DNA of 64,000 nt, from positions 780,311 through 844,310 of the forward strand of contig CAVTAS010000008.1 in NCBI GenBank assembly GCA_963732765.1, read 5' to 3'. The notes beneath the pieces are model-generated. The model was given only the letters and a program-made list of their open reading frames with translations. It searched no databases and had not been told where the DNA came from. This DNA is from an uncultured Alphaproteobacteria bacterium (GTDB taxonomy: Bacteria; Pseudomonadota; Alphaproteobacteria; Rhizobiales; Hyphomicrobiaceae). Shown one piece after another: positions 2,569 through 43,999 of this stretch. The position numbers and the translations under genes were made by a program. How positions within the stretch are numbered: the stretch's first letter is position 1; each line of letters opens with the position of its first letter.

Positions 2569-3297
2569 GTGGCGCAACGTGAAGTTGAACTGATGACCTT
2601 GGAGTTCGTCTCCAAGCTCGATGCGGTAGAGGGGTCGCAAGCCGCGTTACCCCTGTTCTCGGACTATGCCGAAAAGCTCGGCTTTTCCAACGCTATTTGC
2701 ATGCGAGTGCCCGAGCCCGGCGAGGATTTGAGTTCTAGTTTTCTGCTCAACACCTACCCACAAGAGTGGGTAAGGCATTATGGCGAAAGCGACTACATCT
2801 CGGTCGATCCCGTCGTTCGCGAGCTGTTCATCAATTACCACCCTTTCCTGTGGTCGGAAGTCACCGGACGCCGAGAAATGGGCGCTGTTGAACTTCAGAT
2901 CATGGCCGAAAGCGCCGAGATGGGCATGCGCCAGGGCTTCACGGTGCCGATCTATCAGGACGGCGGCTATACGGGTCTGGTCAGCTTGGCTGGTCGCGAA
3001 CCCATGATCACCGAAGAAAGCCGCGGAGCCGTGACGCTCGCGTCGATTTATCTCCACAACAAGCTCTCGACGTTGCGCAGGCGCGAGGCGCAAAATCACT
3101 ACGAACTGACCGAAAGGGAACTTGAATGCCTGCGCTGGGCCTCGGTCGGCAAGTCAGACTGGGAAATCGGCCATATCCTCACGATCAGTGCAAAGACGGT
3201 AAACTACCACATTGAGAACGCCAAACGTAAGTTCGGCGTCGCGACGCGTGTGCAGGCGATTGTCGCTGCGTTGCGGCTGGGCAGACTAGTCAACTAG
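2569..3297 (+). CDS. LuxR-family acyl-homoserine-lactone-responsive transcriptional regulator (autoinducer-binding domain plus C-terminal LuxR helix-turn-helix)
   Basis: N-terminal autoinducer-binding-like domain and C-terminal ELTERELECLRWASVGKSDWEIGHILTISAKTVNYHIENAKRKFGV helix-turn-helix. GTG start at 2569; alternative ATG at 2593. Confidence 0.8.
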   Translation: MAQREVELMTLEFVSKLDAVEGSQAALPLFSDYAEKLGFSNAICMRVPEPGEDLSSSFLLNTYPQEWVRHYGESDYISVDPVVRELFINYHPFLWSEVTGRREMGAVELQIMAESAEMGMRQGFTVPIYQDGGYTGLVSLAGREPMITEESRGAVTLASIYLHNKLSTLRRREAQNHYELTERELECLRWASVGKSDWEIGHILTISAKTVNYHIENAKRKFGVATRVQAIVAALRLGRLVN

Positions 3298-3498
3298 CTG
3301 CACCTTGTCTTAGTTCAGTCATTTATAGTCATAAGCGCCTGGATTTTCCAGAGCGGTGCCGATCTTATGTATTTACAGAGTAGATGAACAAGCCTGCGCT
3401 GTCGTTGCGTGATCGCAGCCAGCCTGATCTTCCGATAATCTGCCGCGACGGCCGAACGCGCTCGGCGGTGGAGACCCTAGGCCATTATTCCGCTTTGC

Positions 3499-3515
3499 GT
3501 AACCTAGGCGGTTAC
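3499..3515. promoter_or_regulatory. Candidate lux-box-like palindrome GTAACC-TAGGC-GGTTAC upstream of the AHL synthase gene
   Basis: 6-bp perfect inverted arms with a 5-bp spacer, centred about 72 bp upstream of the luxI-type start. It lies in the AT-rich luxR-luxI intergenic region. Confidence 0.3.
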
Positions 3516-3578
3516 CCGGCTTAACGGAAAATCAACCAAGACTAAAGCTGGCCCCTTCTCAAGTCAGTTGGAGGTCGG

Positions 3579-4256
3579 GTGATGTTGTTCGCGTATACCG
3601 GTAAGGACGAAAATCGCAACCGTGCGTTGTTCGAACAGATGTATCGTCAGCGCTACGAGATTTATGTGAAGCGCCGCAAATGGGGCGGGCTGAAGCCCAT
3701 CGGCGACCAGGAGCGTGACGAGTTCGATACCGCTTCGGCGGTGTATCTGGTGGCGCTGGACGCCGAGGACGAAATCCTGGCCGGCCTTCGGTTGCTGCCT
3801 ACCACCCGGCCGCACATCCTGGGTGATCTGTTTCCGCACCTCGCCGTCGAAGGTGTTCCGACCGGCCCCGACATCCTGGAGCTGACGCGCTTCTACATCG
3901 CCCCGTTCAAGTCCAGCCGCGCGGTGCGCGACTGGCTGGTCGGTGTGTTGTGTGCGGGGATGATCGAATATTGCCTTGCCAATAATGTGCGCCAGGTCAC
4001 CAGCGTGATCGACACTTTCTTGCTGAAGCTCATGCTCTCGATGGAATGGAGCGTGCGTCCCCTGGGCGTGCCGCGTCCTTATCCGGAAGGCGAAGCAGTG
4101 GCGGTGATCGTTGAAATGACGCCGGCAATCCTTGAGTCCACGCGCCGCACTAAGGGTGTCGTCGGCTCGGTGCTGGCCCGCCCCGGCTTTGAACGGGCGC
4201 GCATTCCCGCTGGCATCCGGACCGAAGCGATGGTGCTGCACGCGCTGCAGCAATAG
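3579..4256 (+). CDS. Acyl-homoserine-lactone synthase, LuxI family
   Basis: LuxI signature ...LELTRFYIAPF...; RBS GGAGG 6-9 nt upstream. GTG at 3579 or ATG at 3582. Confidence 0.85.
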   Translation: MMLFAYTGKDENRNRALFEQMYRQRYEIYVKRRKWGGLKPIGDQERDEFDTASAVYLVALDAEDEILAGLRLLPTTRPHILGDLFPHLAVEGVPTGPDILELTRFYIAPFKSSRAVRDWLVGVLCAGMIEYCLANNVRQVTSVIDTFLLKLMLSMEWSVRPLGVPRPYPEGEAVAVIVEMTPAILESTRRTKGVVGSVLARPGFERARIPAGIRTEAMVLHALQQ

Positions 4257-5354: not shown

Positions 5355-5504
5355 TTTAGGGCAACATCCACCGCTGCGGCATGTGAGGCCTTCGCAAAGC
5401 GCGCCGCGTCGCCTATATTGTCAGCTATGACATCAGCGCACGAATCCGCCTCCACGCCCGCCGCGCCCGCGCCTAAGCGCGCACGGCGGCCTTTGCCCAA
5501 GGTC

Positions 5505-5867
5505 ATGTCGCTTACGGATGCCGCGGCAACCCGTATCCGATCCATTATGGCCAACACCGATAGGCCGCTGGCCGGAGTACGGGTGGGCGTCAAGAACGGC
5601 GGCTGCGCGGGCATGGAGTATACGCTGGAATACGCCGAAAGTCGCAGCCCGCTCGACGAAGTCGTCGAGGATAAGGGCGTGCAGGTACTGATCGATCCGA
5701 AAGCCGTGCTGTTCCTGCTCGGCACCACCATGGACTTCGAGGTTGGCAAGCTGAAGTCCGGCTTTGTGTTCCACAATCCTAACCAGACCAGCGCCTGCGG
5801 TTGCGGCGAATCGGTCGCCATCACGCCGGCCAAGCCCGATAGCGCTGGCGGCGATGCCACCGCCTGA
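5505..5867 (+). CDS. HesB/IscA/ErpA-family iron-sulfur cluster insertion protein, with a C-terminal extension
   Basis: MSLTDAAATRIRSI...GGCAGMEY...CGCGES. The ORF may start further upstream, at 5418. Confidence 0.75.
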   Translation: MSLTDAAATRIRSIMANTDRPLAGVRVGVKNGGCAGMEYTLEYAESRSPLDEVVEDKGVQVLIDPKAVLFLLGTTMDFEVGKLKSGFVFHNPNQTSACGCGESVAITPAKPDSAGGDATA

Positions 5868-7414
5868 CGCGGGGGTCCCGCAAGCCCAGACGACGGTACT
5901 AGGCGCCGCCAGTGACTGGCTGGATCGCTTGTTGGCGGAGCCTGCCAAGGCGCTCGGCGTGCTCTGCACCGCCCAGGTGCTGTTTTGGACCCTGGCTTGC
6001 GCGCTCACCCACTATGGTCCGACGCGCGACATGGTGGAGAGCTACCTCTGGGGCCACGAGTGGGTCATCGGCACCCCTAAGCATCCCAACCTGCCGGGCT
6101 TGATCCTGGAATCCGGCCGGGTCCTGACGGGTTCGATTGCCTGGCCGGGCTATTTCTCGTCCGAGCTGCTGCTGGTCGGCACCTATCTCTGCACTTATGG
6201 CCTCGGCGCCGAGATCATGGGACCGCGTCGGGCGCTGGCGGGCGTGCTGCTGCTGACCGGCCTGTTCTACATGGCCTGGCCCAGCACGCTGATGAACCAC
6301 GATGTGGTGCAGATGCCGATCTGGGCCGGCCTGGTCTGGTTGCTGTGGCGGCAGCGCTCGTCGGCAAGTCTCGCCGGATGGCTGGCGCTTGGGCGCGCTG
6401 GCGGCCTTGGGTCTCTATGCCAAGCTCTCGTTTGGCGTCATGATTGCGTGTTGCGGGCTGTGGGTTCTCTACGATCCCCTGCTGTTTCGCCAGCTTGCCC
6501 GTCCCGCTCCCTGGGCGGGCCTTGCCCTCTTTGGCGTCCTTTGCCTGCCGCTGCTCGGCTGGCTGCGCAGCTCGCAATTCGTCGCGCTGGATTATGCCCG
6601 CGAGCAGAATGCCGCCGGCGGGGCAAGCCCCTGGGAGTTCCTCGGCGGGCAGATCCTGACCTCGCTTGGCGTGCTCGCTGTGGCGGTGCTGGCCGGCCTG
6701 ATCTGGCGCCGCGCCGGCGCACACGCACCCGGCCCCTTGCCGCCGCCGGTCGACGACGTGCCGCTGCCGACCCCCATCTCCATCCGTTATCTCGCCCACA
6801 TGCTCCTGATGCCCAATCTCATGACTACGTGGCTGGCCTGGATGATGTCTTCGGGCACGCGCGGCATGTGGGGCACGCCCATGCTCAGTCTGCTCGGCCT
6901 GCTGGTGGTGGCATTGGTCCCCGAGCGGCTCGATCGCATCACTCTGCGAAAGATCGCGCAGCTTGCCAGTGCGTTGCTGGTGGTCCTCCCCGCCATCTAC
7001 ATCGCCGACACGCTGATCGAACCTCGCATTTGGGGAAAACCAAAACGCCAGGGCTGGCCGCAGGCCGAAATGAATCAACGCTTTCAGGCGCTATGGCACC
7101 AACAAACCGGCAAGCCCCTGCGCATCGTCGGTGGAGATTTCTGGACAGCTGGCCTCGTCGCCCTCAGCCCCGGCGACATGCCCTCCATCTTCACCAATGG
7201 CAATTTCGATACCGCCCCCTGGATCACGCCCGAAAGGCTGAAACGGGAAGGCGCGCTGCTGGTCTGGCACGCCGGCGATCCAGCCGCTGGAATACCGCTC
7301 GATCTTCTGCCGATTGCTGGCGCCAACCCACCCCGCTTTGAGCGTTTCCAATGGCCGCTGATTACCGATGCGCCGCCGCTTTTGATCGGCTATGCCATTG
7401 TTCCACCGGCCTGA
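5854..7414 (+). pseudogene. ArnT/PMT-like (GT83/GT39) undecaprenyl-phosphate-sugar:lipid A glycosyltransferase, split by an apparent +1 frameshift near 6360-6395
   Basis: ORF 5764-7341 reads well up to ...MPIWAGLVWLLWRQ. The protein then continues in the frame of ORF 6302-7414 (...RLGALAALGLYAKLSFGVMIACCGLWVL...). Multi-pass membrane protein with an ArnT-like N-terminal motif (YGPTRDMVESYLWGHEW...KHPNLP). Confidence 0.6.
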
Positions 7415-7453
7415 CCGGCTGCCGATCTCCCACAAACCAATGCTAAACCCCTG

Positions 7454-8440
7454 ATGCCGCAGCAGCTTCTCTCTGTCATCGTGCCCGTGCTGAACGAGGC
7501 GGCCAATCTTGGCGAGCTCTCAGGGCGGCTGCGTACCGTGCTGGATACGCTGGACATCGGCTGGGAGGTGATCGCGATCGACGATGGCTCGACCGATGGC
7601 ACAATGGCGGCGCTGCGCGATCTGCACACGGCCGACCCGCGCTTTCGCGCCGTCTCGCTCAGCCGCAATTTCGGCAAGGAGCGCGCCATCGCGGCGGGCC
7701 TGGCCTATGCTCAAGGCGACGCCGCCGTGCTGATCGACGCCGATCTGCAGCATCCGCCCGAAGTCATTGCCGAGTTCCTGGTCGAATGGCGCAAGGGCTT
7801 CGATATCGTCTACGGCCAGCGCATCGATCGTAACACCGATGGGCCGGCGCGGCGCTATCTGGCGCGCGGTTTCTACCGCCTGTTCAGGTTGCTCTCGCGG
7901 ACCTCGCTGCCACCAGGGGCGGGCGATTTCCGCCTGCTGTCGCGCCGCGCGGTCGACGCCATGAACCGCTTTGGCGAGCGCGAGCGTTTCAACAAGGGCC
8001 TCTACTCCTGGATCGGCTTTCCCTCAATCGGCGTTCCCTACCGGGTCGCAGAGCGCAAGGCCGGGTTTGCCAAGTGGAGCCCGCGCAAGCTGATCCATTT
8101 CGCGCTCGACGGCATCTTCTCGTTCTCGACCATGCCGTTGCGCATTTCGGCCGTGCTCGGCCTGCTGATCTCGCTCGGCGCGGTCGGCTACGGTTTCTAT
8201 TTCCTGATCTATACGCTGATGTTCGGTATCGACCGGCCGGGCTTTCCTTCGCTGATCATCTCGATCATGTTTCTCAGCGGCGTGCAGTTGGTGTCGCTGG
8301 GCATCGTGGGCGAATATCTCGGCCGCGTGTACGAAGAAGTGAAAGCGCGCCCGCTGTTCCTGGTAGCTGAGGAAGTCGGGTTCGTTCGCCAGCCGGGCGC
8401 GGCCCGCGTGCTGGACCGTCCGATGGGAGATCGCGCATGA
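7454..8440 (+). CDS. GT2-family polyprenyl-phosphate glycosyltransferase (ArnC/LgmA/DPM1-like)
   Basis: LSVIVPVLNEAANL...IAIDDGSTDGT...DADLQHPPE... plus two C-terminal TM helices. Confidence 0.8.
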   Translation: MPQQLLSVIVPVLNEAANLGELSGRLRTVLDTLDIGWEVIAIDDGSTDGTMAALRDLHTADPRFRAVSLSRNFGKERAIAAGLAYAQGDAAVLIDADLQHPPEVIAEFLVEWRKGFDIVYGQRIDRNTDGPARRYLARGFYRLFRLLSRTSLPPGAGDFRLLSRRAVDAMNRFGERERFNKGLYSWIGFPSIGVPYRVAERKAGFAKWSPRKLIHFALDGIFSFSTMPLRISAVLGLLISLGAVGYGFYFLIYTLMFGIDRPGFPSLIISIMFLSGVQLVSLGIVGEYLGRVYEEVKARPLFLVAEEVGFVRQPGAARVLDRPMGDRA

Positions 8441-9315
8441 CCCCGGCACATCTTCCGCCTGGACCGCAAATTCTGCTGTGTGCCGATGATTTCGCCATCT
8501 CCAGCTCGGTGTCGAGGGGCATCGAAGAGGCGGTTGCGGCGGGACGCTTGTCGTCGACGTCGGCTTTCGCAACCTTCCCGGAGTGGCCAGCGGAGGCCAA
8601 GCGTCTGGCCGCCCTGCGCAACCAGATCGCCATCGGCCTGCATCTCAATTTCACTGTCGGTGCACCGCTTGGCGCCATGCCGATTCTCGCGCCATCAGGT
8701 GCGTTGCCGCCCATGATGGAACTGATGAACCGCAGCCTGCGCCGCGCCATCGACCCCGCCGAGATCGAAGCCGAGACGGTGCGCCAGCTGACGCGCTTTG
8801 CCGAGCATGTGGGGCATGCGCCCGACTATCTGGACGGGCACCAGCATGCCCATGCTCTACCCGGGATTGGCCCGGCCGTGCTCGCCGGCCTTACGCGCTG
8901 GGAGGCCGGCCGAAAGTCCATGATGGTGCGCGATCCTGGCGACACCTTTTCCCGCATCGTGCAGCGCAGGCGCTGCGTGAAGAAGGCTTTCAAGCTTGCC
9001 TGGCTGGTGGTCGGATTTGGCGGTCGCGTGCGCCGCTCTGGCCATCCAGTGAACGTCGGTTTTTCCGGCCACTCGCACTATATGACGAGCAGCCCCTATC
9101 CGCGCGAGTTGGAAGCCAGTTTCATCGCCACCGGCCCACGGCACCTGATGATGTGCCATCCGGGTTACGCGGACGAACTGCTGGCGTCGCGCGATTGGGT
9201 GACAGTGCGGCGTGAGCAGGAATTGCAGGGCCTCTTGAGCGCCGAAGGTCTGAAGGAACGGCTGTGGCGGCCGGATCGAGCCCGCGCCGATCTTTGGGCC
9301 GACTGGCGTGTCTGA
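8437..9315 (+). CDS. ChbG/HpnK (YdjC)-family carbohydrate deacetylase (LgmC-like)
   Basis: ILLCADDFAISSSVSRGIEEAV...HLN...DGHQHAH. Its start overlaps the GT2 stop (ATGA). Confidence 0.75.
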   Translation: MTPAHLPPGPQILLCADDFAISSSVSRGIEEAVAAGRLSSTSAFATFPEWPAEAKRLAALRNQIAIGLHLNFTVGAPLGAMPILAPSGALPPMMELMNRSLRRAIDPAEIEAETVRQLTRFAEHVGHAPDYLDGHQHAHALPGIGPAVLAGLTRWEAGRKSMMVRDPGDTFSRIVQRRRCVKKAFKLAWLVVGFGGRVRRSGHPVNVGFSGHSHYMTSSPYPRELEASFIATGPRHLMMCHPGYADELLASRDWVTVRREQELQGLLSAEGLKERLWRPDRARADLWADWRV

Positions 9316-9712
9316 GCCAACCGATTTGCGAGCCAGGATTTTTCACTATGGTGGTTTTCTGCTGGCCGGAGGCCTCGCCTTCGTCACCGATGTCGGCGTG
9401 TTCCAGCTCTTGAACGTGGCGGCGGGGGTTGCCGCACTAATCGCCCGTCCCGTTAGCATTTCCGTTGCGATGATCGTCTCGTGGCTGATCAACCGCACTG
9501 TGACCTTCCCGATGCCCGGCCCGCCGCGCCTGCCCGAATTCCTTCATTTCGCCGCCCTCGCCTGGGTGGCCGCGGCGTTCAACTACGCGGTGTTCGCCGC
9601 GGTGCTATGGGGATGGCCGGAGATCTGGAAACCGCTCGCCATTTTCGTCGCCTCCCTGGCCGCAATGGTGCTCGGCTATGTCAACATGCGGTTTTCGGTG
9701 TTCCGGAAGTGA
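9308..9712 (+). CDS. GtrA-family membrane protein (LgmD-like; putative polyprenyl-P-sugar flippase component)
   Basis: Small four-TM protein with a GtrA-like profile. GTG start overlaps the YdjC stop. Confidence 0.7.
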   Translation: MSEPTDLRARIFHYGGFLLAGGLAFVTDVGVFQLLNVAAGVAALIARPVSISVAMIVSWLINRTVTFPMPGPPRLPEFLHFAALAWVAAAFNYAVFAAVLWGWPEIWKPLAIFVASLAAMVLGYVNMRFSVFRK

Positions 9713-9796
9713 CGCGGACAAGGCGTCCGTTCACCGAAAATGCACCATTGCCGCGCATTCTGTCCACTTACACCGGCCTGATGTTGGGAGTAGCCG

Positions 9797-10627
9797 ATGG
9801 CCCTTGACGATGTTCCGCTCGCCGAGCCGATGTCCCCTGGCGCCGAGCGTTTCAGCCGCGAAGCGCTCAAGCGCGGCGCCGCGCACAACGGCATCCTGCT
9901 GAGCTACGGCGACGATCCCATGCAGTCGATGCTGGTGTTTCCCGCCAAACGTCCGACCGGCCCAGTGCTGATCTTCTATCACGGCGGCAACTGGACCAAT
10001 GGTTCCAAGGATTGGTTCGCCTATCTCGCGCCCCTGCTGACTGCGCGCGGCATCACCTTCGTCAGCGTTGGCTATCGCCTTGCCCCGGGTGCGATGTTCC
10101 CGGTCGGCTGGGAGGATGCGCTCTACGGTTTCGACATCGCCGTGCGCAACATCGCCAAGTTCGGCGGCGATCCCAACCGGGTGTTCGTTTCCGGGCACGA
10201 TGCCGGCGCCCATTATGCCGCCCTGATGGCCTTGAAGGCCGGGTGGCGCGATGCGCTCTCCTTGCCGATGGATGTGGTCAAGGGCTGCCTGCCCATTTCC
10301 GGCTTCTACGATTTCGGCCCCAACGCCGGCTTTAAGAGCCGCCCGATGTTTCTGGGCATGCCCGAGCAGAAGGGCGAGCGTTACGCCTCCGCCATCCGCT
10401 ATGGCCATCCCAAAGCGCCGCCTTTCCTGGTCACCTATGGTTCGGACGACCTCCCCCATGCGCGCAGCCAGGGCCACGATTTCGTGCGCGCGCTGCGCCG
10501 CGAACACATGATGGCCGAGGAACTGGTGCTGGAAGGCCAGGACCATTTCGGCACGGCGCTGGCCATTGCCGAAGAAAACGGGCCCTGGATCGCCGCCGTC
10601 AACTGGATGACCGGTAACACCGGTTGA
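9797..10627 (+). CDS. Alpha/beta-hydrolase fold esterase/lipase
   Basis: HGGNW oxyanion motif and GHDAGAHYAA nucleophile-elbow-like motif; ends ...EGQDHFG. Confidence 0.7.
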   Translation: MALDDVPLAEPMSPGAERFSREALKRGAAHNGILLSYGDDPMQSMLVFPAKRPTGPVLIFYHGGNWTNGSKDWFAYLAPLLTARGITFVSVGYRLAPGAMFPVGWEDALYGFDIAVRNIAKFGGDPNRVFVSGHDAGAHYAALMALKAGWRDALSLPMDVVKGCLPISGFYDFGPNAGFKSRPMFLGMPEQKGERYASAIRYGHPKAPPFLVTYGSDDLPHARSQGHDFVRALRREHMMAEELVLEGQDHFGTALAIAEENGPWIAAVNWMTGNTG

Positions 10628-10700
10628 AGTGGTCTGGACGGATGCGGGCGATCTGAGGCAAATTACCCCCCGCTAGTCGCACCAACCGGGACGGTCCTCC

Positions 10701-11741
10701 ATGCGCATCGCAGCCGTGCTTGTCGCTATCCTGGCTCCAATCCTGAGCATCGCGTCGCCCGCAATTGCCGCCGACGACTGGGCGGCCTGCAAGAGCGACG
10801 ACTTCAAGGCCGTAGTCGCCAGCTGCAGCGCGCTCTTGAAGAAGGGCAAACTGAACCGTACGCAGACCATCGACGCGCTGACCAACCGCGCCTGGTCCTA
10901 TTACAACACCAACGACAACACCCTGGCGCTGGCCGACTACGCCGACTGCCTGAAGCGCGACGAGAACAACGTCACCTGCCTGAACGGCATGTCGGCCACC
11001 TATGTCGCGATGGAGTGGCACCCCGACGCCATCACTGTCGCCGACAAGGTGATCGCTCTCAATCCGCGCAATCAGTATGCCTACATCAACAAGGGCAATG
11101 CGCTGCACGCCACCTCGCGCTATCAGCAGGCGATCGAACAATACAACAAGGCGCTCGACGTGGCGCCCGGCTGGGTGCGCGCGTACTACCGCCGCGGCCG
11201 CTCCTTGAACGAGGTGGATCGCTACGAGGACGCCATCGCCGATTTCGACAAGGTGATGCTGATCGATCCCGAGTACACGCTGGCGTTGGGTGCGCGCGGC
11301 TACAGCCACCGCGTGCTCGGCCATCTCGACAAGGCGCTAGCCGATTTCAACGCCGCCACCGCTGCCGATGCCAAGGACGACTGGTCGTTCGTCGAGCGCG
11401 GCATGGTGCTGCTGCAGCGCAACGAGAATGAGAAGGCGCTGGCCGATTTCGACACCGGCATCTCGATGGCGCCGACGGTCACCTGGTACTACGGCCAGCG
11501 CGGCATCGCCCACTTCCGGCTAGGCAAGATCGAGGCCGCCAAGCAGGACTTCGAACGTGTTTTGAAGACCGTGAAAGACGACGCCATCGCGAACGTCCAT
11601 CTCGGCCAGATCTACCAGAAGGCCGGCAACACGGGCGCGGCCAAAGCATTCTACCGCGCCGCGATGATGGGCACGGTGTCCGACCCCGACACTCGCGAGG
11701 CACAGAAACAAGCGCTTAAACTGCTGGCGGCGGTGAAATAA
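10701..11741 (+). CDS. Secreted tetratricopeptide-repeat protein
   Basis: Signal peptide MRIAAVLVAILAPILSIASPAIAA followed by multiple TPR-like repeats (AY..RG......A..D...AL). Confidence 0.7.
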   Translation: MRIAAVLVAILAPILSIASPAIAADDWAACKSDDFKAVVASCSALLKKGKLNRTQTIDALTNRAWSYYNTNDNTLALADYADCLKRDENNVTCLNGMSATYVAMEWHPDAITVADKVIALNPRNQYAYINKGNALHATSRYQQAIEQYNKALDVAPGWVRAYYRRGRSLNEVDRYEDAIADFDKVMLIDPEYTLALGARGYSHRVLGHLDKALADFNAATAADAKDDWSFVERGMVLLQRNENEKALADFDTGISMAPTVTWYYGQRGIAHFRLGKIEAAKQDFERVLKTVKDDAIANVHLGQIYQKAGNTGAAKAFYRAAMMGTVSDPDTREAQKQALKLLAAVK

Positions 11742-13272: not shown

Positions 13273-14462
13273 ATGAGCAAAGACGCCAACGCCATTGTCA
13301 TCGCCAGCGCCGCTCGGACACCCGTGGGATCGTTCAACGGAGCGCTCGCCAGCCTGCCCGCTCATGAACTTGGCCGCATCGCCATATCGGCGGCGCTGGA
13401 GCGTGCGGGCGTAAAGGCGGCCGACGTCAGCGAAGTCATCATGGGCCAGATCCTGACCGCCGGTCAGGGCCAGAACCCGGCCCGCCAAGCCTCGGTCAAT
13501 GCCGGCATCCCGCATTCGACGCCCGCTTGGGGCATGAACCAGCTGTGCGGCTCGGGCCTGCGCGCGGTCGCCCTGGGCGCGCAGCAGATCGCCGACGGCT
13601 CGGCCACGCATCGTGGTCGCGGGCGGCCAGGAGAGCATGAGCCAGGCGACGCATTGCGCCCACATGCGCGACGGCACCAAGATGGGCGACTTCAAGCTCA
13701 TCGATACCATGATCAAGGATGGTCTGTGGGATGCCTTTAACGGCTACCACATGGGCAACACGGCCGAGAACGTCGCCAAGCAGTGGCAGATCACGCGCGA
13801 ACAGCAGGATACGTTTGCCGTCGCTTCGCAGAACAAGGCCGAGGCGGCGCAGAAGGCCGGCAAATTCAAGGACGAGATCACGCCCGTGACGATCAAGGGC
13901 AAGAAGGGCGATACCGTCGTTTCGCAGGACGAGTACATCAAGTCTGGCGTCACCATGGAGAGCGTCGCCAAGCTTCGCCCCGCGTTCGACAAGGAGGGCA
14001 CGGTGACCGCGGCCAATGCGTCCGGCATCAACGACGGCGCGGCGGCCCTGGTGCTGATGACGGCGGCCGAGGCCAAGAAGCGCGGCATCGAGCCGATGGC
14101 GCGCATCGTGTCCTGGGCGACGCGTTGGCGTCGATCCCGCGATCATGGGCTCAGGCCCGATCCCGGCCTCGCGCGCGGCGCTGAAGAAGGCCGGCTGGAA
14201 GGCGGACGATCTCGATCTGGTGGAAGCCAACGAGGCCTTCGCGGCGCAGGCCTGCGCCGTCAACAAGGACCTCGGCTGGGATACCTCCAAGGTCAACGTC
14301 AACGGCGGCGCGATCGCCATCGGCCACCCGATCGGAGCATCAGGCGCGCGCGTGCTGACGACGCTGCTCTACGAGATGAAGCGCCGCGGCGCCAAGAAGG
14401 GCCTGGCCACGCTCTGCATCGGCGGCGGCATGGGCGTGGCAATGTGCGTCGAGCGGGATTGA
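13273..14462 (+). pseudogene. phaA: Acetyl-CoA C-acetyltransferase (beta-ketothiolase PhaA) interrupted by two apparent +1 frameshifts, at about 13610 and about 14126
   Basis: A thiolase is readable across three frames: 13273.. (…[13 protein letters not shown]), 13613.. ([11 protein letters not shown]…IVSWAT) and 14145.. (…[15 protein letters not shown]…[13 protein letters not shown]). Each junction is restored by deleting a C after ACG. Confidence 0.8.
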
Positions 14463-14468
14463 GCCGGC

Positions 14469-14710: not shown

Positions 14711-16339
14711 CTACACCCTTGCCCGCTGCCGCCCAAACCGCGGCGCCTGCTCGAAGCGCGCGTGATCCTCGTCGGACTGCCAGCGGTCGTCGCCGCGCTG
14801 CGCTGACACGCCACCGTTCATCTGCGGAATGTTCGCTTGCTCGGCTGACCGCGGCACCGCCCCGGGGATACCACCCGTGAACCAGGCGTCGATCAGATCG
14901 ATCTCGTCGCTGGAGAGCTGCATGCCCTGGCTGCGGCAGCGCGCGATCACGAAGTTGCGGAAGCGTCCCGCAAACACCGCCGGCGACACGCCCTGCTCGA
15001 AGTAGGGATCGGCCTCGCGCACCACATCGATGACGAAGCGGATATCGTCGCGGCGCGGGTCGAAACCTTCGCGGCGGGCGCGCTTCAGCACGTTGTTGAC
15101 GGTGCTGTCGCCGTTGAAGGTGAACTCGCGCAGTTCGGCCGACAGCAGCTCGAACAGCATCTTGTATTCCGGCGGCGCCAACGGCGGGGCCTGGCAGGCC
15201 TCGTGGATCTTGGCCACCGACTGCTGCAGATGCTGGGCCGACGACTGCGCCAGGTTCTGCGTGCGTGGACGGGGCTGCAACGGCGCCGGCTCGGCCGGAC
15301 GGTCGATTTGACGCTTGGCCGGAGCGGCCTGCTGGCTGGCAACCTGCTGGCCGGCACGCGCTGGGGCGGGCTGCAGCGGCACCACGGTGGGCGCTTCGGC
15401 AACCGGAAGGTCGATCGGCGCCAGACGCTCCGGGCTGAAGATCATATAGGGCGGTTCGGCCGTGACCTGCAGACGTTCGGGCAGGTGCTGAGCCAGGAAA
15501 GCCTTGAAGCCTCCCGTGCCAGCCCAATTCGAGCCTGAGGTCCGCTCGCTGCCAAGCGCGCGCTGGACGCGATCGGCGACCGCTTCCATGGCCAGCGGCT
15601 TGTCCGCGACATCAACCGTGGCGACCACCACGGCGATGATATCAGCGGCGATAGCGGCCGTTTCGGCGTCATTGCCTTGCGCAGCGTCTTGCGCTGGCTT
15701 GGCAGCCTCGGCAGCCGCCGGGCGCGCTGTCTCGGATGCGCCAGACAGCGCCCCCTCGATCAGCATCTTGATGAAATCGCCTTCACGGATCTCACCATCG
15801 CAGATGGCGGTGTAAGGTGTCGCCGTGTGTTCGTTGGCGAAGATGACCGTCGAACGGGCATGGGCCCTCAGGCGCTGCAGTACCGGCGTGAAGTCGGCAT
15901 CGCCGGACAGGATGATGAACTCATCGAAACGCGTCTCGTGGGTGAGATAATCGCGCATGTCCATGACCATGCGGATGTCGGACGAATTCTTGAGCTGCGC
16001 GGTCAGCGGCGGGCAGTCGACGATCTCGAAGCCGGCGCGCAGGAAGTGGTGGCGCACGAACGGGAACGACGACATGTCGGTCGAGTTGTCGCGGGAATTG
16101 CGCCGTGGCACTGGATTGCCATAGCAGCGGCTCATCACGATGCGCCGCTCGCGCTTGACGCCGTTGCCATTGGTTGTGGTGATCAGCTGGCCCTGTTCGA
16201 TGGCCTTCAGCCAATGCACCGCATCCTTGGCGAAGCGGCGCGCCGCCTCCTCGTCTTTCCGCTTCAACGACAAGTAGATGTTGTCGTAGTCGACGAAGAT
16301 CGCGCTCAGGCACGGTCCGTCACTGTTCCTCGTCATCAC
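14711..16339 (-). CDS. NYN (LabA-like) nuclease-domain protein with a low-complexity linker and a C-terminal domain of unknown function (possibly OST-HTH/LOTUS)
   Basis: N-terminus ...LSAIFVDYDNIYLS...ILSGDADFTPVLQRL is a NYN/LabA signature. Central Ala/Pro/Gln-rich linker, then a structured C-terminal approximately 150 aa. Confidence 0.7.
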   Translation of the reverse strand: MMTRNSDGPCLSAIFVDYDNIYLSLKRKDEEAARRFAKDAVHWLKAIEQGQLITTTNGNGVKRERRIVMSRCYGNPVPRRNSRDNSTDMSSFPFVRHHFLRAGFEIVDCPPLTAQLKNSSDIRMVMDMRDYLTHETRFDEFIILSGDADFTPVLQRLRAHARSTVIFANEHTATPYTAICDGEIREGDFIKMLIEGALSGASETARPAAAEAAKPAQDAAQGNDAETAAIAADIIAVVVATVDVADKPLAMEAVADRVQRALGSERTSGSNWAGTGGFKAFLAQHLPERLQVTAEPPYMIFSPERLAPIDLPVAEAPTVVPLQPAPARAGQQVASQQAAPAKRQIDRPAEPAPLQPRPRTQNLAQSSAQHLQQSVAKIHEACQAPPLAPPEYKMLFELLSAELREFTFNGDSTVNNVLKRARREGFDPRRDDIRFVIDVVREADPYFEQGVSPAVFAGRFRNFVIARCRSQGMQLSSDEIDLIDAWFTGGIPGAVPRSAEQANIPQMNGGVSAQRGDDRWQSDEDHARFEQAPRFGRQRARV

Positions 16340-37824: not shown

Positions 37825-38816
37825 TCACATCCCCCAGCGCAAGGCTGGCGTCCGCACCGGGGCGTCCCACAGGTGCATGAGGCTGTCGTCGAGGCGCGTC
37901 AGCGTGATCGAGCAGCCGGCCATGTCGAGGGACGTGACATAGCTGCCGACCAGCGAGCGGGCGATGACGACGCCATGCTGCTCGGCGACGCGGCGGGCGT
38001 TGTCGTACATGAGATACAATTCCATCGCCGGCGTGCCGCCAAAGCCGTTGATCAGCATCAGGCACGGGCCCCGCGCCGCCGCGCCAAGGTCGGCAACGAT
38101 GGCGCTCGACCATTTCCTCAGCGATGGCCTTGGCAGGCATGAGCGGGACACGGCGCCGGCCGGGCTCGCCGTGAATGCCGACGCCCATCTCCATCTCGTC
38201 GGCGCTGAGTTGCGAAGGTTGAGCGGCCAGCGGCGGGCACCGTGCAGCTGCTCAGGGCAACGCCCATCGAGCGGGTGGCCTGGTTGACACGGGCGCCGAT
38301 TGCCTGGCAGCCGGCGAGTGTGTCACCGCGCTCAGCCGCCGCGCCGACCATCTTCTCCACGATCAGCGTGCCTGCGACGCCGCGCCGGCCGGTTGTGAAC
38401 AGAGAGTTCTGTACTGCGACGTCGTCATCGATCAGGACGCGCTCGATTGCGCCCCCGATCAGCTCCGACGCCATCTCGAAGTTCATCACGTCGCCTTCGT
38501 AGTTCTTCACGATCAGCAGCACGCCGGCCCCGCCGTCGACAGCGGCGGCGGCCGCCAGCATCTGATCGGGCGTGGGCGAAGTAAAAACCTGGCCTGGGCA
38601 GGCGGCATCCAGCATGCCGTGCCCGACAAAACCGGAGTGCAGCGGCTCGTGGCCGGCGCCGCCGCCCGAGATCAGCGCGACTTTGCCCGGCGTAACGATC
38701 TTGCGGCGGACGAATTTGCTATCAGCGCCCAGACTCACCGTGTCGGCATGGGCCGCGACAAAGCCGGCGAGACTTTCGGCCAGTGCGGTGGCCGGCGCAT
38801 TGATCAGCTTCTTCAC
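37825..38816 (-). pseudogene. dhaK: PTS-dependent dihydroxyacetone kinase subunit DhaK, with at least 2 frameshifts
   Basis: A DhaK is readable in three frames: GTG 38816.. (VKKLINAP…[10 protein letters not shown]…CTVPAAG), 38194.. ([31 protein letters not shown]) and 38151..37825 (…LINGFGGTPAMELYLMY…LWDAPVRTPALRWG). Confidence 0.65.
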
Positions 38817-38874
38817 GAACTCTTCCTCGTGTGTCCCGGCTCTCGTGTCCCAGTTCTTGTGTTGCGGGCCGCGC

Positions 38875-39300
38875 CTACGATCCTGACAATAGATCGGCCA
38901 GCTTGCGCATGAAATCATTGACTAACGCATGCAGTTTTTCATTGCGCTCGTCGTCGCCGAGATCGGGCAGCTGAAAAGTATGCGATTTGAGCCGCTGCGC
39001 CTCGGCAAGCAGTACCGGACGGCGCGGATGAGCGCGCGCATAGGCCGCCAGGAAGCGCTGCCGCTCCTCGGCGGAGAAATGGCAGACTTCGAAGATCAGC
39101 TCGATATGGCCGGCAGGGATCGGTGTGGCATAGGCCTGGCTCGCGATATGGCTGACAAAACTGCGGTTCTTGCCGAGTGCCGTCGCCAACCGGCCGCGCG
39201 TGCCAGAGGGGCGGCGCTCCAGGACCTGCGCCAGAATGAGCTTGTATTCCGCAACCGGAGTGTCCAAAGGCTCGGCCACCGCGGCATCAGGTTTGGCCAT
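38875..39300 (-). CDS. XRE-like helix-turn-helix protein embedded in the dha locus; possible regulator
   Basis: Helix-turn-helix-like [23 protein letters not shown]. Start ambiguous (ATG 39300 or TTG 39312). Confidence 0.4.
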
Positions 39301-41679
39301 CGGGGCCTCCAATATCGATTCCGGCTAGCGCGGTCTTGACGCGGCCAAGGGCGGCTGGGGCCACAGAGAAGGACCGCAGGCCGATGGCCAGCAGCGGTTT
39401 CAGCAGATTGACGTCGCTGGCTATGTCGCCGCACAGCGAGATGTCGAGGCCAAGCTGGCGTGCACTTGCGACGGCGCCGGCCATGAGTTGCAGCACAGCT
39501 TCGGGAGCGCCTTCGTTGAAACCGGCAACAGCTGGCGTATCGCGGCTTGCCGCCATGACGTACTGTGTCAGATCGTTTGAACCGATGGAGAAGAACGCCG
39601 CGTCCTTGAATTGCGCGGCCAAGATGGCGGCAGCGGGTACTTCGATCATGATCCCAAGTGGCGGGCGGCGGTGCGGTGTCGCCTTCGCGCGCAAGCTCTG
39701 CACACACATCGCCTTCCAGCTGCCGCGCGGCGGCCAGCTCCGATGGCAGCGTCACCATCGGTAACATCACCTTGAGGTCGCCATGCAGCGCGGCGCGGGC
39801 GAGCGCGCGCAACTGCACGCGGAAGACATCGGGCCGGGCCAGCATCAGGCGGACGCCGCGTGAGCCGAGGAACGGATTGCTCTGGCCCAATGGCGTCAGC
39901 CCACGGATCGGTTTGTCACCGCCGGCATCGAGCGTGCGGATGGTCACCGGTTTGCCGTCCGCCCACTCCAGGCAGCGGCGATAGGCAAGGTACTGCGCAT
40001 CTTCGCCCGGCAAAGGTTCGCCATCCCTGAGCATCATCTCGGTGCGGAAGAGATCCGATGCCGTCGCAGGCAGTCGGGGGCGATTGCGTCAAGATCGTCC
40101 GGGCCGGAAATGTTTATCAGGACTGCTATGGCCACACCGTCCCGGGTTTTCGCCGGACGGTAGAGCGCGGCCTGCTCCATACCCTGCGAGGCGCCCGGCT
40201 TGCGCCTGCTGCGCGCGTCAGCCCGGCCACGTCCGCCGCGTTCGGGACTCAGCACAATGCGGCCGCGCGTGCCATCAACGATGGCCATGCGATGCCCATC
40301 GAGCGGCAAAGGCCCGAGGCCAACCACCATCGGAACGCCGCGGTTGCGGGCCAGCATGGCGACGTGGCTGGACGGGCTGCCGCCTGCGAGCATGATGCCG
40401 CCGCCTTGCGACCAGTCGGCTTCCAGAAACTGGCTGGGCGCCAGATCCTCGGCTGCGAGGATGGCGCCCGCGGGCAACCGCTGAGGAGCCGCGCCGCCGC
40501 GCAAGCCGCCGTAGCACGCGATCGCGCAGGTCAATCAGATCGATAGTGCGGGCACGGAAATACTCGTCGTCCGACGATTGATAGTCGGCGATCTGATCGA
40601 GGATAGCAGCGCTCCAGGCTTTATCGGCATGGCGCCCCGGCAGCGATGGCCTCCAGCGCCGGTTTGCGCAGCACCACGTCGGCCAGCATAGCAGCCTGGA
40701 ATTCGAGCATGTCGTCGACCATCGCCGCTTAAACTTGCGGCAAGCCGTTCGATCTCGGCGATCGAGGCTCGCATATCGAGGCCATCTAGCGTGCCGCGCT
40801 CCTGGGCGGGCGCTTCCTACTGCCCGCTCGCCGCAACCGGGGGCGCGATGACTGCGATGGTTCCGTGCAGCTAGCCCCGGCGACGCCGCCAGGCCGTCAA
40901 GCAAGTTGCTCAGCGGCTACCGGCACTTGCGATTTTGTCGCGGTCTTCGTCGAAGTTGCGCTCGACGAGGGCGACCAGCGCGGCGATGGCGGGTTCGGCA
41001 TCGTCACCCTCGGCCTTGATCGCGAGCGCAGTGTTGCCAGGCGTCTTCAGCGCCATCACTTTGACGATGCTCTTGGCGTCCACCCAGTCGGAGCCTGCCC
41101 GCCAGGACGAACCTGCACGCTCGCCCGGAAGGTCTTGGCGAGCTTGCTGAATTTTACCGCCGGGCGCGCGTGCAGCCCGGTGGGATTGGTCATCAGCACC
41201 GACGCCTCGGCCTTGCCCGATGTCATGGCTGCTCCTGGTGCTGATTATGATGGCGTTTGACTGGTCATCATCTTGGCCTCGCACCGGATTAGACCGGCGA
41301 CAGCTCCTCTGCGGTGCGGCGCACTTCGGCCGAGCGACGCACCGCCCGACGCCTCGGTCGCCGCCATCACGGAGCCCTCGACGATCGGGGCGTTGCAGAC
41401 AATGATCTTACCCTGACGGTCCGCCGGCATCATTTCCACGGCCATCTCGCTGTTGGTCTCGGCGCCGCCGAGGTCGACCAGGATAACGACGCCTTTGTCC
41501 GACCACGCCTCGTCGATGGCGGCCATGATGGCTGCGACGCTGGTACCGAGCCCGCCTTCGGGGTTGCCGCCGCACCAGGCCAGCGGAACGTCCGCGCCCA
41601 CCATCTGGCGCACCATGTCGGCTGCGCCTTCCGCCACTTTGGCCGAATGCGAGACAATGACGATGCCGACATTGCTCAT
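39287..41679 (-). pseudogene. dhaM: Multidomain DhaM (EIIA-Man / HPr / enzyme-I PEP-utilising domains), fragmented by multiple frameshifts
   Basis: EIIA: ORF 41245-41679 (IVIVSHSAKVAEGAADMV). HPr-like: 40910-41284. Enzyme-I pieces: 40275-40904, 40034-40534, 39096-40037 and 39287-39709 (…FSIGSNDLTQY…), all in different frames. Confidence 0.6.
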
Positions 41680-42316
41680 GTCCGGCCCTCCAGCACGTCG
41701 AGGACGGCATCGACGATCAATTGACTGGAACGTGCGCCGGGGTCCATGTGGCCGATGGACCGCTCGCCCAGGAACGAGGCGCGGCCGCGGGTCGCCAGCA
41801 TCGGAATGGTCGCGGTGGCGGCGTCGGCAGCGGCCTTTCGGGATGGAAGGCCTGCTTCGCGAGTGCGGCCTGAACTGGGATCAGCACATCGAGCATCGTC
41901 TTTTGTCCGGGTGCGGACTTGCCGCGTGCCTGGACGGCTGCGATGGCGGACGCGAATGCCTGGACAGCGTCCGCCTCGCGTTGCTGCGGGCGGGATCGCC
42001 TTACCAAGCGCCATGAACAAAGTGCCGAACAGCGGACCCGACGCGCCCTCCGACCTTCATCACAAGAGTGGTGCCGATCGCCTGCAATGCCTGAGGCAAC
42101 GGCTGAGCTGCGATCTCGTCGATGTCGCCCCAGAACAGCTTCGAAACCGCGCTGCATGTTGAGGCCGTGATCGCCATCGCCGATCGCCTGATCTAGCGCG
42201 GTGAGTTCACCGGCGTGCTCGATGACGCGGCCGGCGACCGCTTCAATCAGCTTACGGATGAGCGCTTCGTCGACTTGCATTGCGGGTAGAAACTCCGTAT
42301 TCGTCTCAATTCTCAA
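41676..42316 (-). pseudogene. dhaL: Dihydroxyacetone kinase ADP-binding subunit DhaL, frameshifted
   Basis: ORF 41717-42316 starts MQVDEALIRKLIEAVAGRVIEHAGELTALDQAIGDGDHGLNM, then degenerates. The C-terminal part continues in the frame of ORF 41676-42020 (…SIGHMDPGARSSQLIVDAVLDVLEG). Confidence 0.55.
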
Positions 42317-43953: not shown

Positions 43954-43999
43954 CACCGGCTCCTTGCAGCGACTTGTGTGTTGTCCGAGGTCATGGGCA

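What the first reader, a model, noticed from the sequence alone, without database searches (positions are those of the whole stretch)
5854..9712. Four-gene lipid-A sugar-modification locus with LgmABCD-like architecture; the ArnT-like transferase appears frameshifted
The order ArnT-like GT83, ArnC-like GT2, YdjC/ChbG-family deacetylase, GtrA-like protein has tight or overlapping junctions (ATGA, GTGA). It matches the Bordetella lgm locus, where LgmA/C/D build undecaprenyl-P-GlcN and the ArnT-like LgmB transfers glucosamine to lipid A phosphates. The YdjC-type deacetylase distinguishes it from the enteric arn (L-Ara4N) pathway, which uses ArnD. Such a locus is not a commonly described feature of Bradyrhizobiaceae. 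If the frameshift is real, the pathway is a recent pseudogene. If not, the organism probably decorates lipid A or another acceptor with an amino sugar.
Basis: partly seen in the sequence, partly recalled or inferred. Interest (0 to 1): 0.55.

Follow-up and report, generated by a model that had tools for sequence, protein, structure and literature searches.

The report
Amino-sugar envelope glycosylation operon, one frameshift
Four adjacent genes encode the usual parts for building an amino sugar on a lipid carrier and attaching it to something on the outer face of the cell membrane; this is a known kind of system, and the break in its transferase gene is one extra base that may well be an assembly error.

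Summary
On the + strand lie a GT-C membrane glycosyltransferase (5854-7414), a GT2 polyprenyl-phosphate sugar synthase (7454-8440), a YdjC deacetylase (8437-9315) and a GtrA-like protein (9308-9712).

The transferase is broken by one extra G in the run at 6391-6393. Removing it restores a clean 519-codon ORF that aligns end to end with intact 499-519 aa homologues. The block SufA, GT-C, GT2, YdjC, GtrA, esterase is conserved with an intact transferase in four related metagenome genomes.

The best reading is an Lgm/NaxD-type pathway: Und-P-HexNAc is made, deacetylated to Und-P-HexN, flipped, and transferred in the periplasm.

The interpretation needs trimming in three places:
- The GT2 is nearer GtrB than ArnC.
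- The organism's nearest named relatives are Hyphomicrobium and Hyphomicrobiaceae; no Bradyrhizobiaceae name appears among the listed hits.

The same 64 kb holds at least ten more frame breaks, in a thiolase gene and a dha operon. That makes assembly error somewhat more likely than recent pseudogenisation. This is a new member of a known kind, of low to moderate interest.

The parts
5418..5867 (+). SufA/IscA-type Fe-S carrier gene. Its stop overlaps the GT-C start by 14 nt, so it is probably the first gene of the transcription unit and not part of the pathway.
   Evidence: Pfam Fe-S_biosyn 8e-18; NCBIfam SufA 134 bits. Adjacent to the GT-C gene in L001, L002, L003 and L020. A promoter-like site lies at 5391-5419, which is weak evidence.
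5854..6390 (+). GT-C glycosyltransferase, N-terminal 179 codons in the original frame. It contains the first periplasmic loop with the conserved D59 and E62 and the K76-H77-P78 motif.
   Evidence: columns conserved at 90% or more; Pfam PMT_2 covers residues 76-236 of the repaired protein.
6391..6393 (+). GGG run that carries one extra base (a +1 insertion). This is the frameshift site.
   Evidence: DNA alignment with L001, L002 and L003 shows a one-column gap in all three relatives. Deleting one G restores a 519-codon ORF.
6392..7414 (+). GT-C glycosyltransferase, remaining 340 codons in the +1 frame, comprising the rest of the membrane domain and a C-terminal alpha/beta periplasmic domain (about residues 420-519).
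   Evidence: The AlphaFold model of the repaired protein has pLDDT 92.8 and pTM 0.92. The source assembly called this part as a 341-aa gene (P0007).
7454..8440 (+). GT2 polyprenyl-phosphate sugar synthase of the GtrB/ArnC/PgfS type. It has a DDGS(T)D motif, a DAD motif and two C-terminal hydrophobic helices. Inferred product: Und-P-HexNAc.
   Evidence: Pfam Glycos_transf_2 5e-30. PDB: GtrB sll0501 312 bits, ArnC 158-160 bits. 32% identity to E. coli ArnC over 311 aa. NCBIfam PgfS 273 bits and ArnC 157 bits, both below cutoff.
8437..9315 (+). YdjC-family deacetylase (the NaxD/LgmC role), with no N-terminal hydrophobic segment. Inferred reaction: Und-P-HexNAc to Und-P-HexN.
   Evidence: Pfam YdjC 4e-45. 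In the alignment to PDB 7vi8, the ADDF, GLH and DGHQHAH segments line up with ADDFG, GMH and DSHHHVH. The HpnK model scores only 40 bits against a cutoff of 233, and the ChbG model 100 against 227.
9308..9712 (+). GtrA-family small membrane protein with four hydrophobic segments. Inferred role: flippase or helper for the lipid-linked sugar.
   Evidence: Pfam GtrA_DPMS_TM 2e-15, full-length. Two alternative starts have been called, giving 134 aa and 128 aa.
9797..10627 (+). Alpha/beta-hydrolase esterase (Abhydrolase_3 / BD-FAE), a conserved downstream neighbour. Whether it belongs to the functional unit is unknown.
   Evidence: Pfam. Present directly after GtrA in L001, L002, L006, L020 and L021.

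Best explanation
The four genes form one unit, probably co-transcribed with the upstream sufA-like gene. It is a lipid-carrier-dependent periplasmic glycosylation system that delivers an amino sugar.

Proposed steps (all inferred from homology and architecture):
1. The GT2 enzyme transfers HexNAc from a UDP-sugar to undecaprenyl phosphate on the cytoplasmic face.
2. The cytoplasmic YdjC deacetylase converts Und-P-HexNAc to Und-P-HexN, the role of NaxD in Francisella and LgmC in Bordetella.
3. The GtrA-like protein helps move the lipid-linked sugar across the membrane.
4. The GT-C enzyme transfers HexN to an acceptor on the periplasmic side.

The acceptor is not identifiable from sequence. Lipid A or LPS core is the leading candidate by analogy, at about 35% of my belief. 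Other envelope glycans or proteins are comparably likely.

In this assembly step 4 is disabled by one extra G at 6391-6393. I judge this somewhat more likely (about 60%) to be an assembly or consensus error than a real, very recent inactivation.
For: - Family assignments and catalytic motifs.
- Translational coupling (ATGA and an 8-nt overlap).
- The conserved block SufA, GT-C, GT2, YdjC, GtrA, esterase, with an intact GT-C, occurs in L001, L002, L003+L006 and L020, whose GT-C is 59-78% identical.
- The GT2-YdjC-GtrA donor module recurs next to a different GT-C family (GT87) in L014. A 39%-identical relative of this GT-C sits beside GtrA, GT2 and an epimerase, without YdjC, in L019. The GT-C and the sugar-preparing genes therefore behave as exchangeable modules of one kind of system.
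- Literature: lgmA, B and C are needed for GlcN on Bordetella lipid A (PMC4993483, PMC8168481). Francisella FlmF2 makes the Und-P-sugar donor for galactosamine addition to lipid A (PMC8306577, citing Song 2009 and Wang 2009).

For error rather than decay:
- The repaired gene deviates at 4 of 198 conserved columns, the same as its five closest intact relatives (3-7), and at 0 of 35 family-wide columns.
- The same 64 kb has two single-base insertions in a thiolase and two in dhaK, each gene clean once they are removed, plus at least six more frame changes in dhaL and dhaM.
Against: - No biochemical or structural-chemistry data exist for this organism.
- The GT2 is most similar to a glucose-transferring GtrB, so HexNAc specificity rests only on the coupled deacetylase.
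- The GT-C has no detectable sequence relationship to ArnT, LgmB-type or any solved transferase. The ArnT Asp158/Lys203-type pair (PMC8306577) is not evidently conserved: D150 is N in the family consensus.
- Hyphomicrobiaceae lipid A studied so far (Rhodomicrobium vannielii) has no phosphates to modify (PMC7795004).

Against the error reading:
- An independent Logan contig (L021) matches window 7738-11476 with 0 gaps in 3,739 nt, so the assembly is not generally indel-ridden.
- Frame breaks are confined to three loci, while about 45 other genes look full-length.
- No intact allele was found anywhere.
Confidence: 0.6

Rival explanations
1. The frameshift is real. This strain recently lost the transferase, leaving the donor-building genes intact, so it is a young pseudogene or a strain-level loss of the surface modification.
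For: - The break is present in the deposited assembly, which called only the 341-aa C-terminal piece.
- No intact allele was found in 15 billion proteins or in the metagenome scan.
- Adjacent DNA agrees with an independent assembly without any indel.
- Frame breaks in the window are concentrated in a few loci rather than spread evenly, as relaxed selection on dispensable genes would give. A second, intact DhaK-DhaL fusion lies next to the broken dha operon at 42313-44232.
Against: - Apart from one base the gene is indistinguishable from functional relatives.
- A housekeeping-type thiolase beside phaR carries two single-base insertions yet is otherwise perfect. dhaK likewise remains 50-55% identical to E. 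coli DhaK with no stop codons once two bases are removed. Multiple indels without any other damage are more typical of consensus errors.
- The >1 Mb contig from an uncultured lineage suggests a long-read metagenome assembly (inference).
Confidence: 0.4
2. The system is real, but its target is not lipid A. It decorates O-antigen or core, a capsule or exopolysaccharide, periplasmic glucans or envelope proteins with HexN, working like Gtr serotype-conversion systems, the streptococcal Pgf protein-glycosylation system or the mycobacterial PpgS/Rv3779 GalN system.
For: - The GT2 is closest to GtrB (312 bits) and to the PgfS model (273 bits).
- A GtrA-family protein is present.
- Homologues are annotated GT39.
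- Relatives of this GT-C pair with other sugar-preparing genes or stand alone.
- The studied Hyphomicrobiaceae lipid A lacks phosphate (PMC7795004).
Against: - All characterised GT2 + YdjC + GT-C combinations known to me modify lipid A (Francisella, Bordetella; PMC4993483 and my own knowledge).
- There is no prophage context and no linked O-antigen or EPS genes in the window.
Confidence: 0.4
3. The GT2 makes Und-P-glucose as GtrB does, and the YdjC protein acts on an unrelated substrate such as a chitooligosaccharide, so no amino sugar is transferred.
For: The GT2's best solved relative is a glucose-specific GtrB. The YdjC's best solved relative is a chitooligosaccharide deacetylase.
Against: - The GT2 stop and YdjC start overlap (ATGA), and the pair stays adjacent in every relative examined, including distant ones: L014, L015/16 (with a small 67-aa ORF between them) and, divergently oriented, L013.
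- The ChbG model scores 100 bits against a cutoff of 227.
- No chitobiose uptake or catabolic genes are nearby.
Confidence: 0.1
4. The GT2 and YdjC genes are HpnI/HpnK equivalents that make bacteriohopanetetrol-glucosamine.
For: HpnI (GT2) plus HpnK (YdjC) is a known pairing (my own knowledge). The HpnK model gives a weak hit.
Against: - The HpnK model scores 40 bits against a cutoff of 233.
- No HpnI model hit is listed for the GT2, and the HpnB model scores only 19 bits.
- No other hpn genes or a radical-SAM HpnJ are nearby.
- The presence of GtrA and a GT-C points to a polyprenyl-phosphate route.
Confidence: 0.03

Closest known systems
Bordetella lgmABCD locus (GlcN on lipid A phosphates)
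   Same: It has the same four kinds of protein: a GT2 carrier-sugar synthase, a GT-C transferase, a YdjC deacetylase and a small fourth membrane protein. They form one compact locus. The expected chemistry is the same: Und-P-HexNAc, then Und-P-HexN, then periplasmic transfer.
   Different: - The transferase here shows no sequence relationship to ArnT-type enzymes, only a shared fold.
- Gene order differs.
- The acceptor is unknown.
Francisella FlmF2 / NaxD / FlmK (GalN on lipid A 1-phosphate)
   Same: It uses a GT2 synthase, a YdjC-family deacetylase acting on the lipid-linked sugar, and a GT-C transferase.
   Different: The Francisella genes are not one operon (my own knowledge). There is no evidence here for GalN versus GlcN, and orthology to NaxD was not testable.
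Enterobacterial arnBCADTEF (L-Ara4N on lipid A)
   Same: The general logic is the same: a sugar is built on Und-P, de-N-acylated, flipped and transferred by a GT-C. The GT2 is 32% identical to E. coli ArnC.
   Different: - There are no ArnA, ArnB, ArnD or ArnE/F equivalents.
- The deacylase is YdjC, not an ArnD-type polysaccharide deacetylase.
- The ArnC model scores 157 bits against a cutoff of 529, and no ArnT model hits.
Gtr three-component O-antigen glucosylation (GtrA, GtrB, Gtr-type GT-C)
   Same: It has GtrA-family and GtrB-like proteins plus a GT-C. The GT2's best solved relative is GtrB (312 bits).
   Different: It has an added deacetylase, no prophage context, and a GT-C family that is widespread in Alphaproteobacteria-type genomes.
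Rhizobial Rgt system (RgtE GT2 plus RgtA-D/F GT-C, GalA on lipid A and core)
   Same: It is an alphaproteobacterial GT2 plus GT-C carrier-lipid system that acts on phosphate-free lipid A or core (PMC7795004).
   Different: The donor there is GalA and no deacetylase is involved. The Mesorhizobium ciceri homologue of this GT-C is not in an lpxE-rgtF-rgtE type cluster.

Membership tests
Lgm/NaxD-type Und-P-HexN modification system | GT2 polyprenyl-phosphate HexNAc synthase (LgmA / FlmF2 role) | tested here: inconclusive
   It is a GT2 of the GtrB/ArnC/PgfS class with DXD motifs and two C-terminal helices. Sugar specificity is not derivable from sequence.
Lgm/NaxD-type Und-P-HexN modification system | YdjC-family deacetylase genetically coupled to the GT2 | tested here: met
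   Pfam YdjC 4e-45; the ADDF, GLH and DGHQHAH segments line up with those of PDB 7vi8. It overlaps the GT2 gene by ATGA. The pairing is conserved in relatives.
Lgm/NaxD-type Und-P-HexN modification system | ArnT-family (GT83) lipid A transferase | tested here: inconclusive
Lgm/NaxD-type Und-P-HexN modification system | HexN found on lipid A phosphates, dependent on the locus | not testable with these tools
   This needs lipid A mass spectrometry of a cultured or engineered carrier.
Enterobacterial Arn (L-Ara4N) pathway | ArnA, ArnB and ArnD present, with an ArnC/ArnT equivalog | tested here: not met
   No such genes lie in or near the cluster. The ArnC model scores 157 bits against a cutoff of 529, and no ArnT model hits.
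Gtr O-antigen glucosylation system | GtrA + GtrB + type-specific GT-C, usually prophage-borne, transferring glucose | tested here: inconclusive
   GtrA and a GtrB-like GT2 are present. The extra deacetylase and the chromosomal, syntenic context argue for a different sugar. The acceptor is untestable.
HpnI/HpnK hopanoid glucosamine pathway | HpnK and HpnI equivalogs within an hpn cluster | tested here: not met
   The HpnK model scores 40 bits against a cutoff of 233. No HpnI hit is listed, and no hpn neighbours are present.

The most novel reading that the evidence does not exclude
The transferase belongs to a large, uncharacterised GT-C family: 1,624 clusters (at 50% identity) match at E<=1e-30, and none has a solved or named relative. 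In this reading the family attaches sugars to phosphate-free alphaproteobacterial lipid A or core. In this clade it would add a cationic HexN, for example onto the lipid A GalA residue. That would be a candidate for the still unidentified substituent at C-4 of GalA reported for Rhodomicrobium vannielii lipid A (PMC7795004).
Probability: 0.1. Interest if true: 0.55.

Novelty: new member of a known kind. Interest (0 to 1): 0.3.

Why it matters
If functional in relatives, the operon would put a positively charged sugar on the cell surface of a poorly known soil and water lineage of Hyphomicrobiales. That affects resistance to cationic peptides and metals and recognition by hosts or phages.

It also gives a handle on a large unstudied GT-C family.

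For the scan itself, the main lesson is practical. Frameshifts in this assembly cannot be read as biology without read-level support.

Tried and rejected
- **Same-species allele.** A metagenome scan with a pattern allowing GG or GGG at the site gave two hits. Both were unrelated chance matches.
- **Exact look-ups.** Repaired GT-C, thiolase and DhaK are not in the 15-billion-protein collection. The GT2 and P0007 could not be traced to contigs.
- **Independent Logan contig.** One was found (L021), but it starts at window 7738, downstream of the frameshift.
- **Sequence and profile searches of the GT-C.** Searches against PDB found nothing. hhalign against E. coli ArnT was insignificant.
- **afdb50 fold library.** It was unavailable.
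- **'All frameshifts are insertions' as an error signature.** This held for the five sites I could resolve to the base, but failed when dhaM was added, which shows both +1 and -1 shifts.
- **Programmed frameshifting or phase variation.** Rejected: the run is only three G, and all relatives are in frame.
- **RgtF identity of the family.** Not supported: the Mesorhizobium ciceri homologue has no PAP2 or GT2 neighbours, unlike the M. loti lpxE-rgtF-rgtE cluster.
- **Original NaxD and Marr 2008 papers.** Not held in the library. A search for 'lgmD' returned only muscular-dystrophy papers.
- **Bordetella LgmA-D and Francisella NaxD sequences.**

Full report
**What is in the sequence**

Between 5854 and 9712 on the + strand there are four genes.

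- The first matches Pfam PMT_2, the GT-C membrane glycosyltransferases that include ArnT-like and PMT-like enzymes (E 4e-17).
- The second matches Glycos_transf_2 (5e-30).
- The third matches YdjC (4e-45).
- The fourth matches GtrA_DPMS_TM (2e-15).

The GT2 and YdjC genes overlap by ATGA at 8437-8440. The GT-C and GT2 genes are 39 nt apart. The GT-C start at 5854 overlaps the stop of an upstream SufA/IscA-like gene by 14 nt.

**The frameshift**

The GT-C gene reads in one frame from 5854 to 6390 and in the +1 frame from 6392 to the stop at 7414. A DNA alignment with three relatives places a single extra base in the window at cttGGGcgc, positions 6391-6393.

Deleting one G yields one 519-codon ORF. 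It aligns over its full length with intact 499-519 aa homologues of 76-82% identity, reading GWLALGALAALGLYAKLS across the junction.

The deposited source assembly has the same break. Its gene call is the 341-aa C-terminal piece (P0007, 100% identical) on a contig of 1,029,779 bp.

The repaired protein deviates from its relatives at 4 of 198 strongly conserved columns; the five closest intact homologues deviate at 3-7. It deviates at 0 of 35 family-wide conserved columns. The lesion is therefore either extremely recent or not real.

**Is the frameshift real?**

I could not obtain reads.

- A metagenome scan for either allele gave only two chance hits.
- No intact allele exists in the protein collections.
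- An independent Logan contig from run ERR11593397 matches window 7738-11476 with one mismatch and no gaps in 3,739 nt, but it stops short of the site.

The rest of the window is informative.

- A phaA-type thiolase next to phaR (13273-14465) is split into three frames by single-base insertions at 13609 and 14123. Removing them gives a flawless 395-aa thiolase. The source assembly called its 105-aa tail as a gene.
- dhaK (38918 to 37825, minus strand) has two single-base insertions. Once repaired it is 50-55% identical to E. coli DhaK and has no stops.
- dhaL and a dhaM-HPr-EI fusion show at least six further frame changes of both signs.
- About 45 other genes have full-length domain matches.

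Repeated indels in genes that are otherwise undamaged, including a housekeeping-type thiolase, favour consensus errors. Such errors are typical of long-read metagenome assemblies; that this is such an assembly is my inference from the megabase contig of an uncultured lineage. On the other side, the breaks are clustered and the neighbouring DNA matches an independent assembly perfectly, so real gene decay stays plausible. I put error at about 60% and real loss at about 40%.

**Conservation**

A scan of species-representative genomes and contig look-ups found the block SufA, GT-C, GT2, YdjC, GtrA, esterase, with an intact GT-C, in four relatives:

- L001 (78% GT-C identity);
- L002 (65%);
- L003+L006 (two contigs of one MAG);
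- L020 (59%).

In L002 and L003 the upstream LuxR, LuxI and YpfJ genes are syntenic too. L001 also carries the downstream TPR gene.

More distant GT-C homologues (37-50% identity) lack the GT2, YdjC and GtrA genes nearby. These include Mesorhizobium, Polymorphum gilvum and uncultured Alphaproteobacteria. One (L019) sits beside GtrA, GT2, an NAD-epimerase and a UbiA prenyltransferase, with no YdjC. Conversely, a GT2-YdjC-GtrA module 48% identical in YdjC lies next to a GT87-family GT-C in another genome (L014). GT2-YdjC pairs occur without an adjacent GT-C in Methylocapsa and a betaproteobacterium.

The sugar-preparing module and the transferase are therefore interchangeable parts, as expected for carrier-lipid glycosylation systems.

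The GT-C family itself is large. At E<=1e-30 it matches 1,624 clusters (at 50% identity), mostly full-length.

**What each protein resembles**

*GT2.* The best solved relative is Synechocystis GtrB (5ekp, 312 bits). ArnC structures score about 158-160 bits. It is 32% identical to E. coli ArnC. The best NCBIfam model is streptococcal PgfS (273 bits), then ArnC (157 bits); both are below their cutoffs.

*YdjC.* The best solved relative is a chitooligosaccharide deacetylase (7vi8). The ADDF, GLH and DGHQHAH segments align with its ADDFG, GMH and DSHHHVH. It is neither a ChbG equivalog (100 bits against a cutoff of 227) nor an HpnK equivalog (40 against 233). It has no N-terminal hydrophobic segment, so it should act in the cytoplasm.

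*GT-C.* There are no NCBIfam hits and no PDB hit by sequence or by a 37-sequence profile. Comparison with E. coli ArnT gives hhalign probability 1.8%.

It is a GT-C enzyme with conserved acidic residues in the first periplasmic loop (D59, E62), a KHP motif where ArnT has EKP, and K190. It is not demonstrably an ArnT-family member. The ArnT Asp158/Lys203-type pair described in PMC8306577 is not evidently conserved.

**Mechanism**

The best-supported model is the Lgm/NaxD logic:

1. The GT2 makes Und-P-HexNAc.
2. The YdjC enzyme deacetylates it.
3. GtrA assists translocation.
4. The GT-C transfers HexN to a periplasmic acceptor.

Shown here are the families, the conserved motifs, the coupling and the conservation. 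Inferred are the sugar, the order of steps and the acceptor.

The literature confirms that lgmA, B and C are required, and lgmD dispensable, for GlcN on Bordetella lipid A (PMC4993483). It also confirms that LgmB is regarded as an ArnT orthologue (PMC8168481, reference list), and that Francisella uses an ArnC homologue, FlmF2, for the galactosamine donor (PMC8306577). That NaxD acts on Und-P-GalNAc is from my own knowledge of Llewellyn et al. 2012, which I could not open.

The lipid A target is only an analogy. The one Hyphomicrobiaceae lipid A described in the papers I read, from Rhodomicrobium vannielii, is phosphate-free. It carries GalA at C-1 and Man at C-4', and has an unidentified substituent on GalA C-4 (PMC7795004). 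If lipid A is the target, the chemistry must differ from Bordetella.

**Organism**

The window has no rRNA or tRNA genes. For its SerS the best unnamed hit is 80% identical, and the best named hits are Hyphomicrobium and Hyphomicrobiaceae at 66-69%. The syntenic relatives are labelled Hyphomicrobiaceae MAGs.

**Verdict**

This is a new member of a known kind of system. It uses a transferase from a large, unstudied GT-C family, and its frameshift should not be interpreted biologically without reads. Interest is 0.3.

Noticed in passing
window 13273-14465 (+): A phaA-type acetyl-CoA acetyltransferase next to phaR is split into three frames by single-base insertions at 13609 and 14123. Removing them gives a perfect 395-aa thiolase. 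The source assembly called the 105-aa tail as a separate gene.
   Followed up: yes
window 37825-42316 (-): A PTS-dependent dihydroxyacetone kinase operon (dhaL, a dhaM-HPr-EI fusion, a small regulator-like ORF, dhaK) carries at least nine frame changes. Two single-base insertions in dhaK were resolved to the base. An intact DhaK-DhaL fusion gene lies immediately upstream at 42313-44232.
   Followed up: partly
window 2569-4256 (+): A LuxR-type receptor (Autoind_bind + GerE) and a LuxI-type autoinducer synthase lie upstream of the cluster. They are syntenic in relatives L002 and L003.
   Followed up: no
whole window; The organism is an uncultured Hyphomicrobiales lineage. For SerS the best hit overall is 80% identical, and the best named hits are Hyphomicrobium and Hyphomicrobiaceae at 66-69%.
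   Followed up: partly
L014:6033-9457: A GT2-YdjC-GtrA module (YdjC 48% identical) sits convergent with a GT87-family GT-C instead of the PMT_2-family enzyme. This suggests the same donor module serves different transferases.
   Followed up: partly
L019:5122-9766: A 39%-identical homologue of the GT-C is flanked by a UbiA prenyltransferase on one side and by GtrA, GT2 and an NAD-dependent epimerase on the other, with no YdjC. The same transferase family may therefore be fed a different sugar.
   Followed up: no
window 9797-10627 (+): An Abhydrolase_3/BD-FAE esterase follows GtrA in every relative that has the cluster (L001, L002, L006, L020, L021). Whether it belongs to the pathway, for example as an O-acetyl esterase, or simply reflects local synteny is unknown.
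   Followed up: no
window 5418-5867 (+): A SufA/IscA-like Fe-S carrier gene overlaps the GT-C start by 14 nt and keeps this adjacency in relatives. It is an odd operon partner for a glycosylation system.
   Followed up: no
window 61847-63265 (+) and 14711-16339 (-): An RTX calcium-binding repeat protein (472 aa) and a 542-aa NYN-domain protein. Neither was examined further.
   Followed up: no
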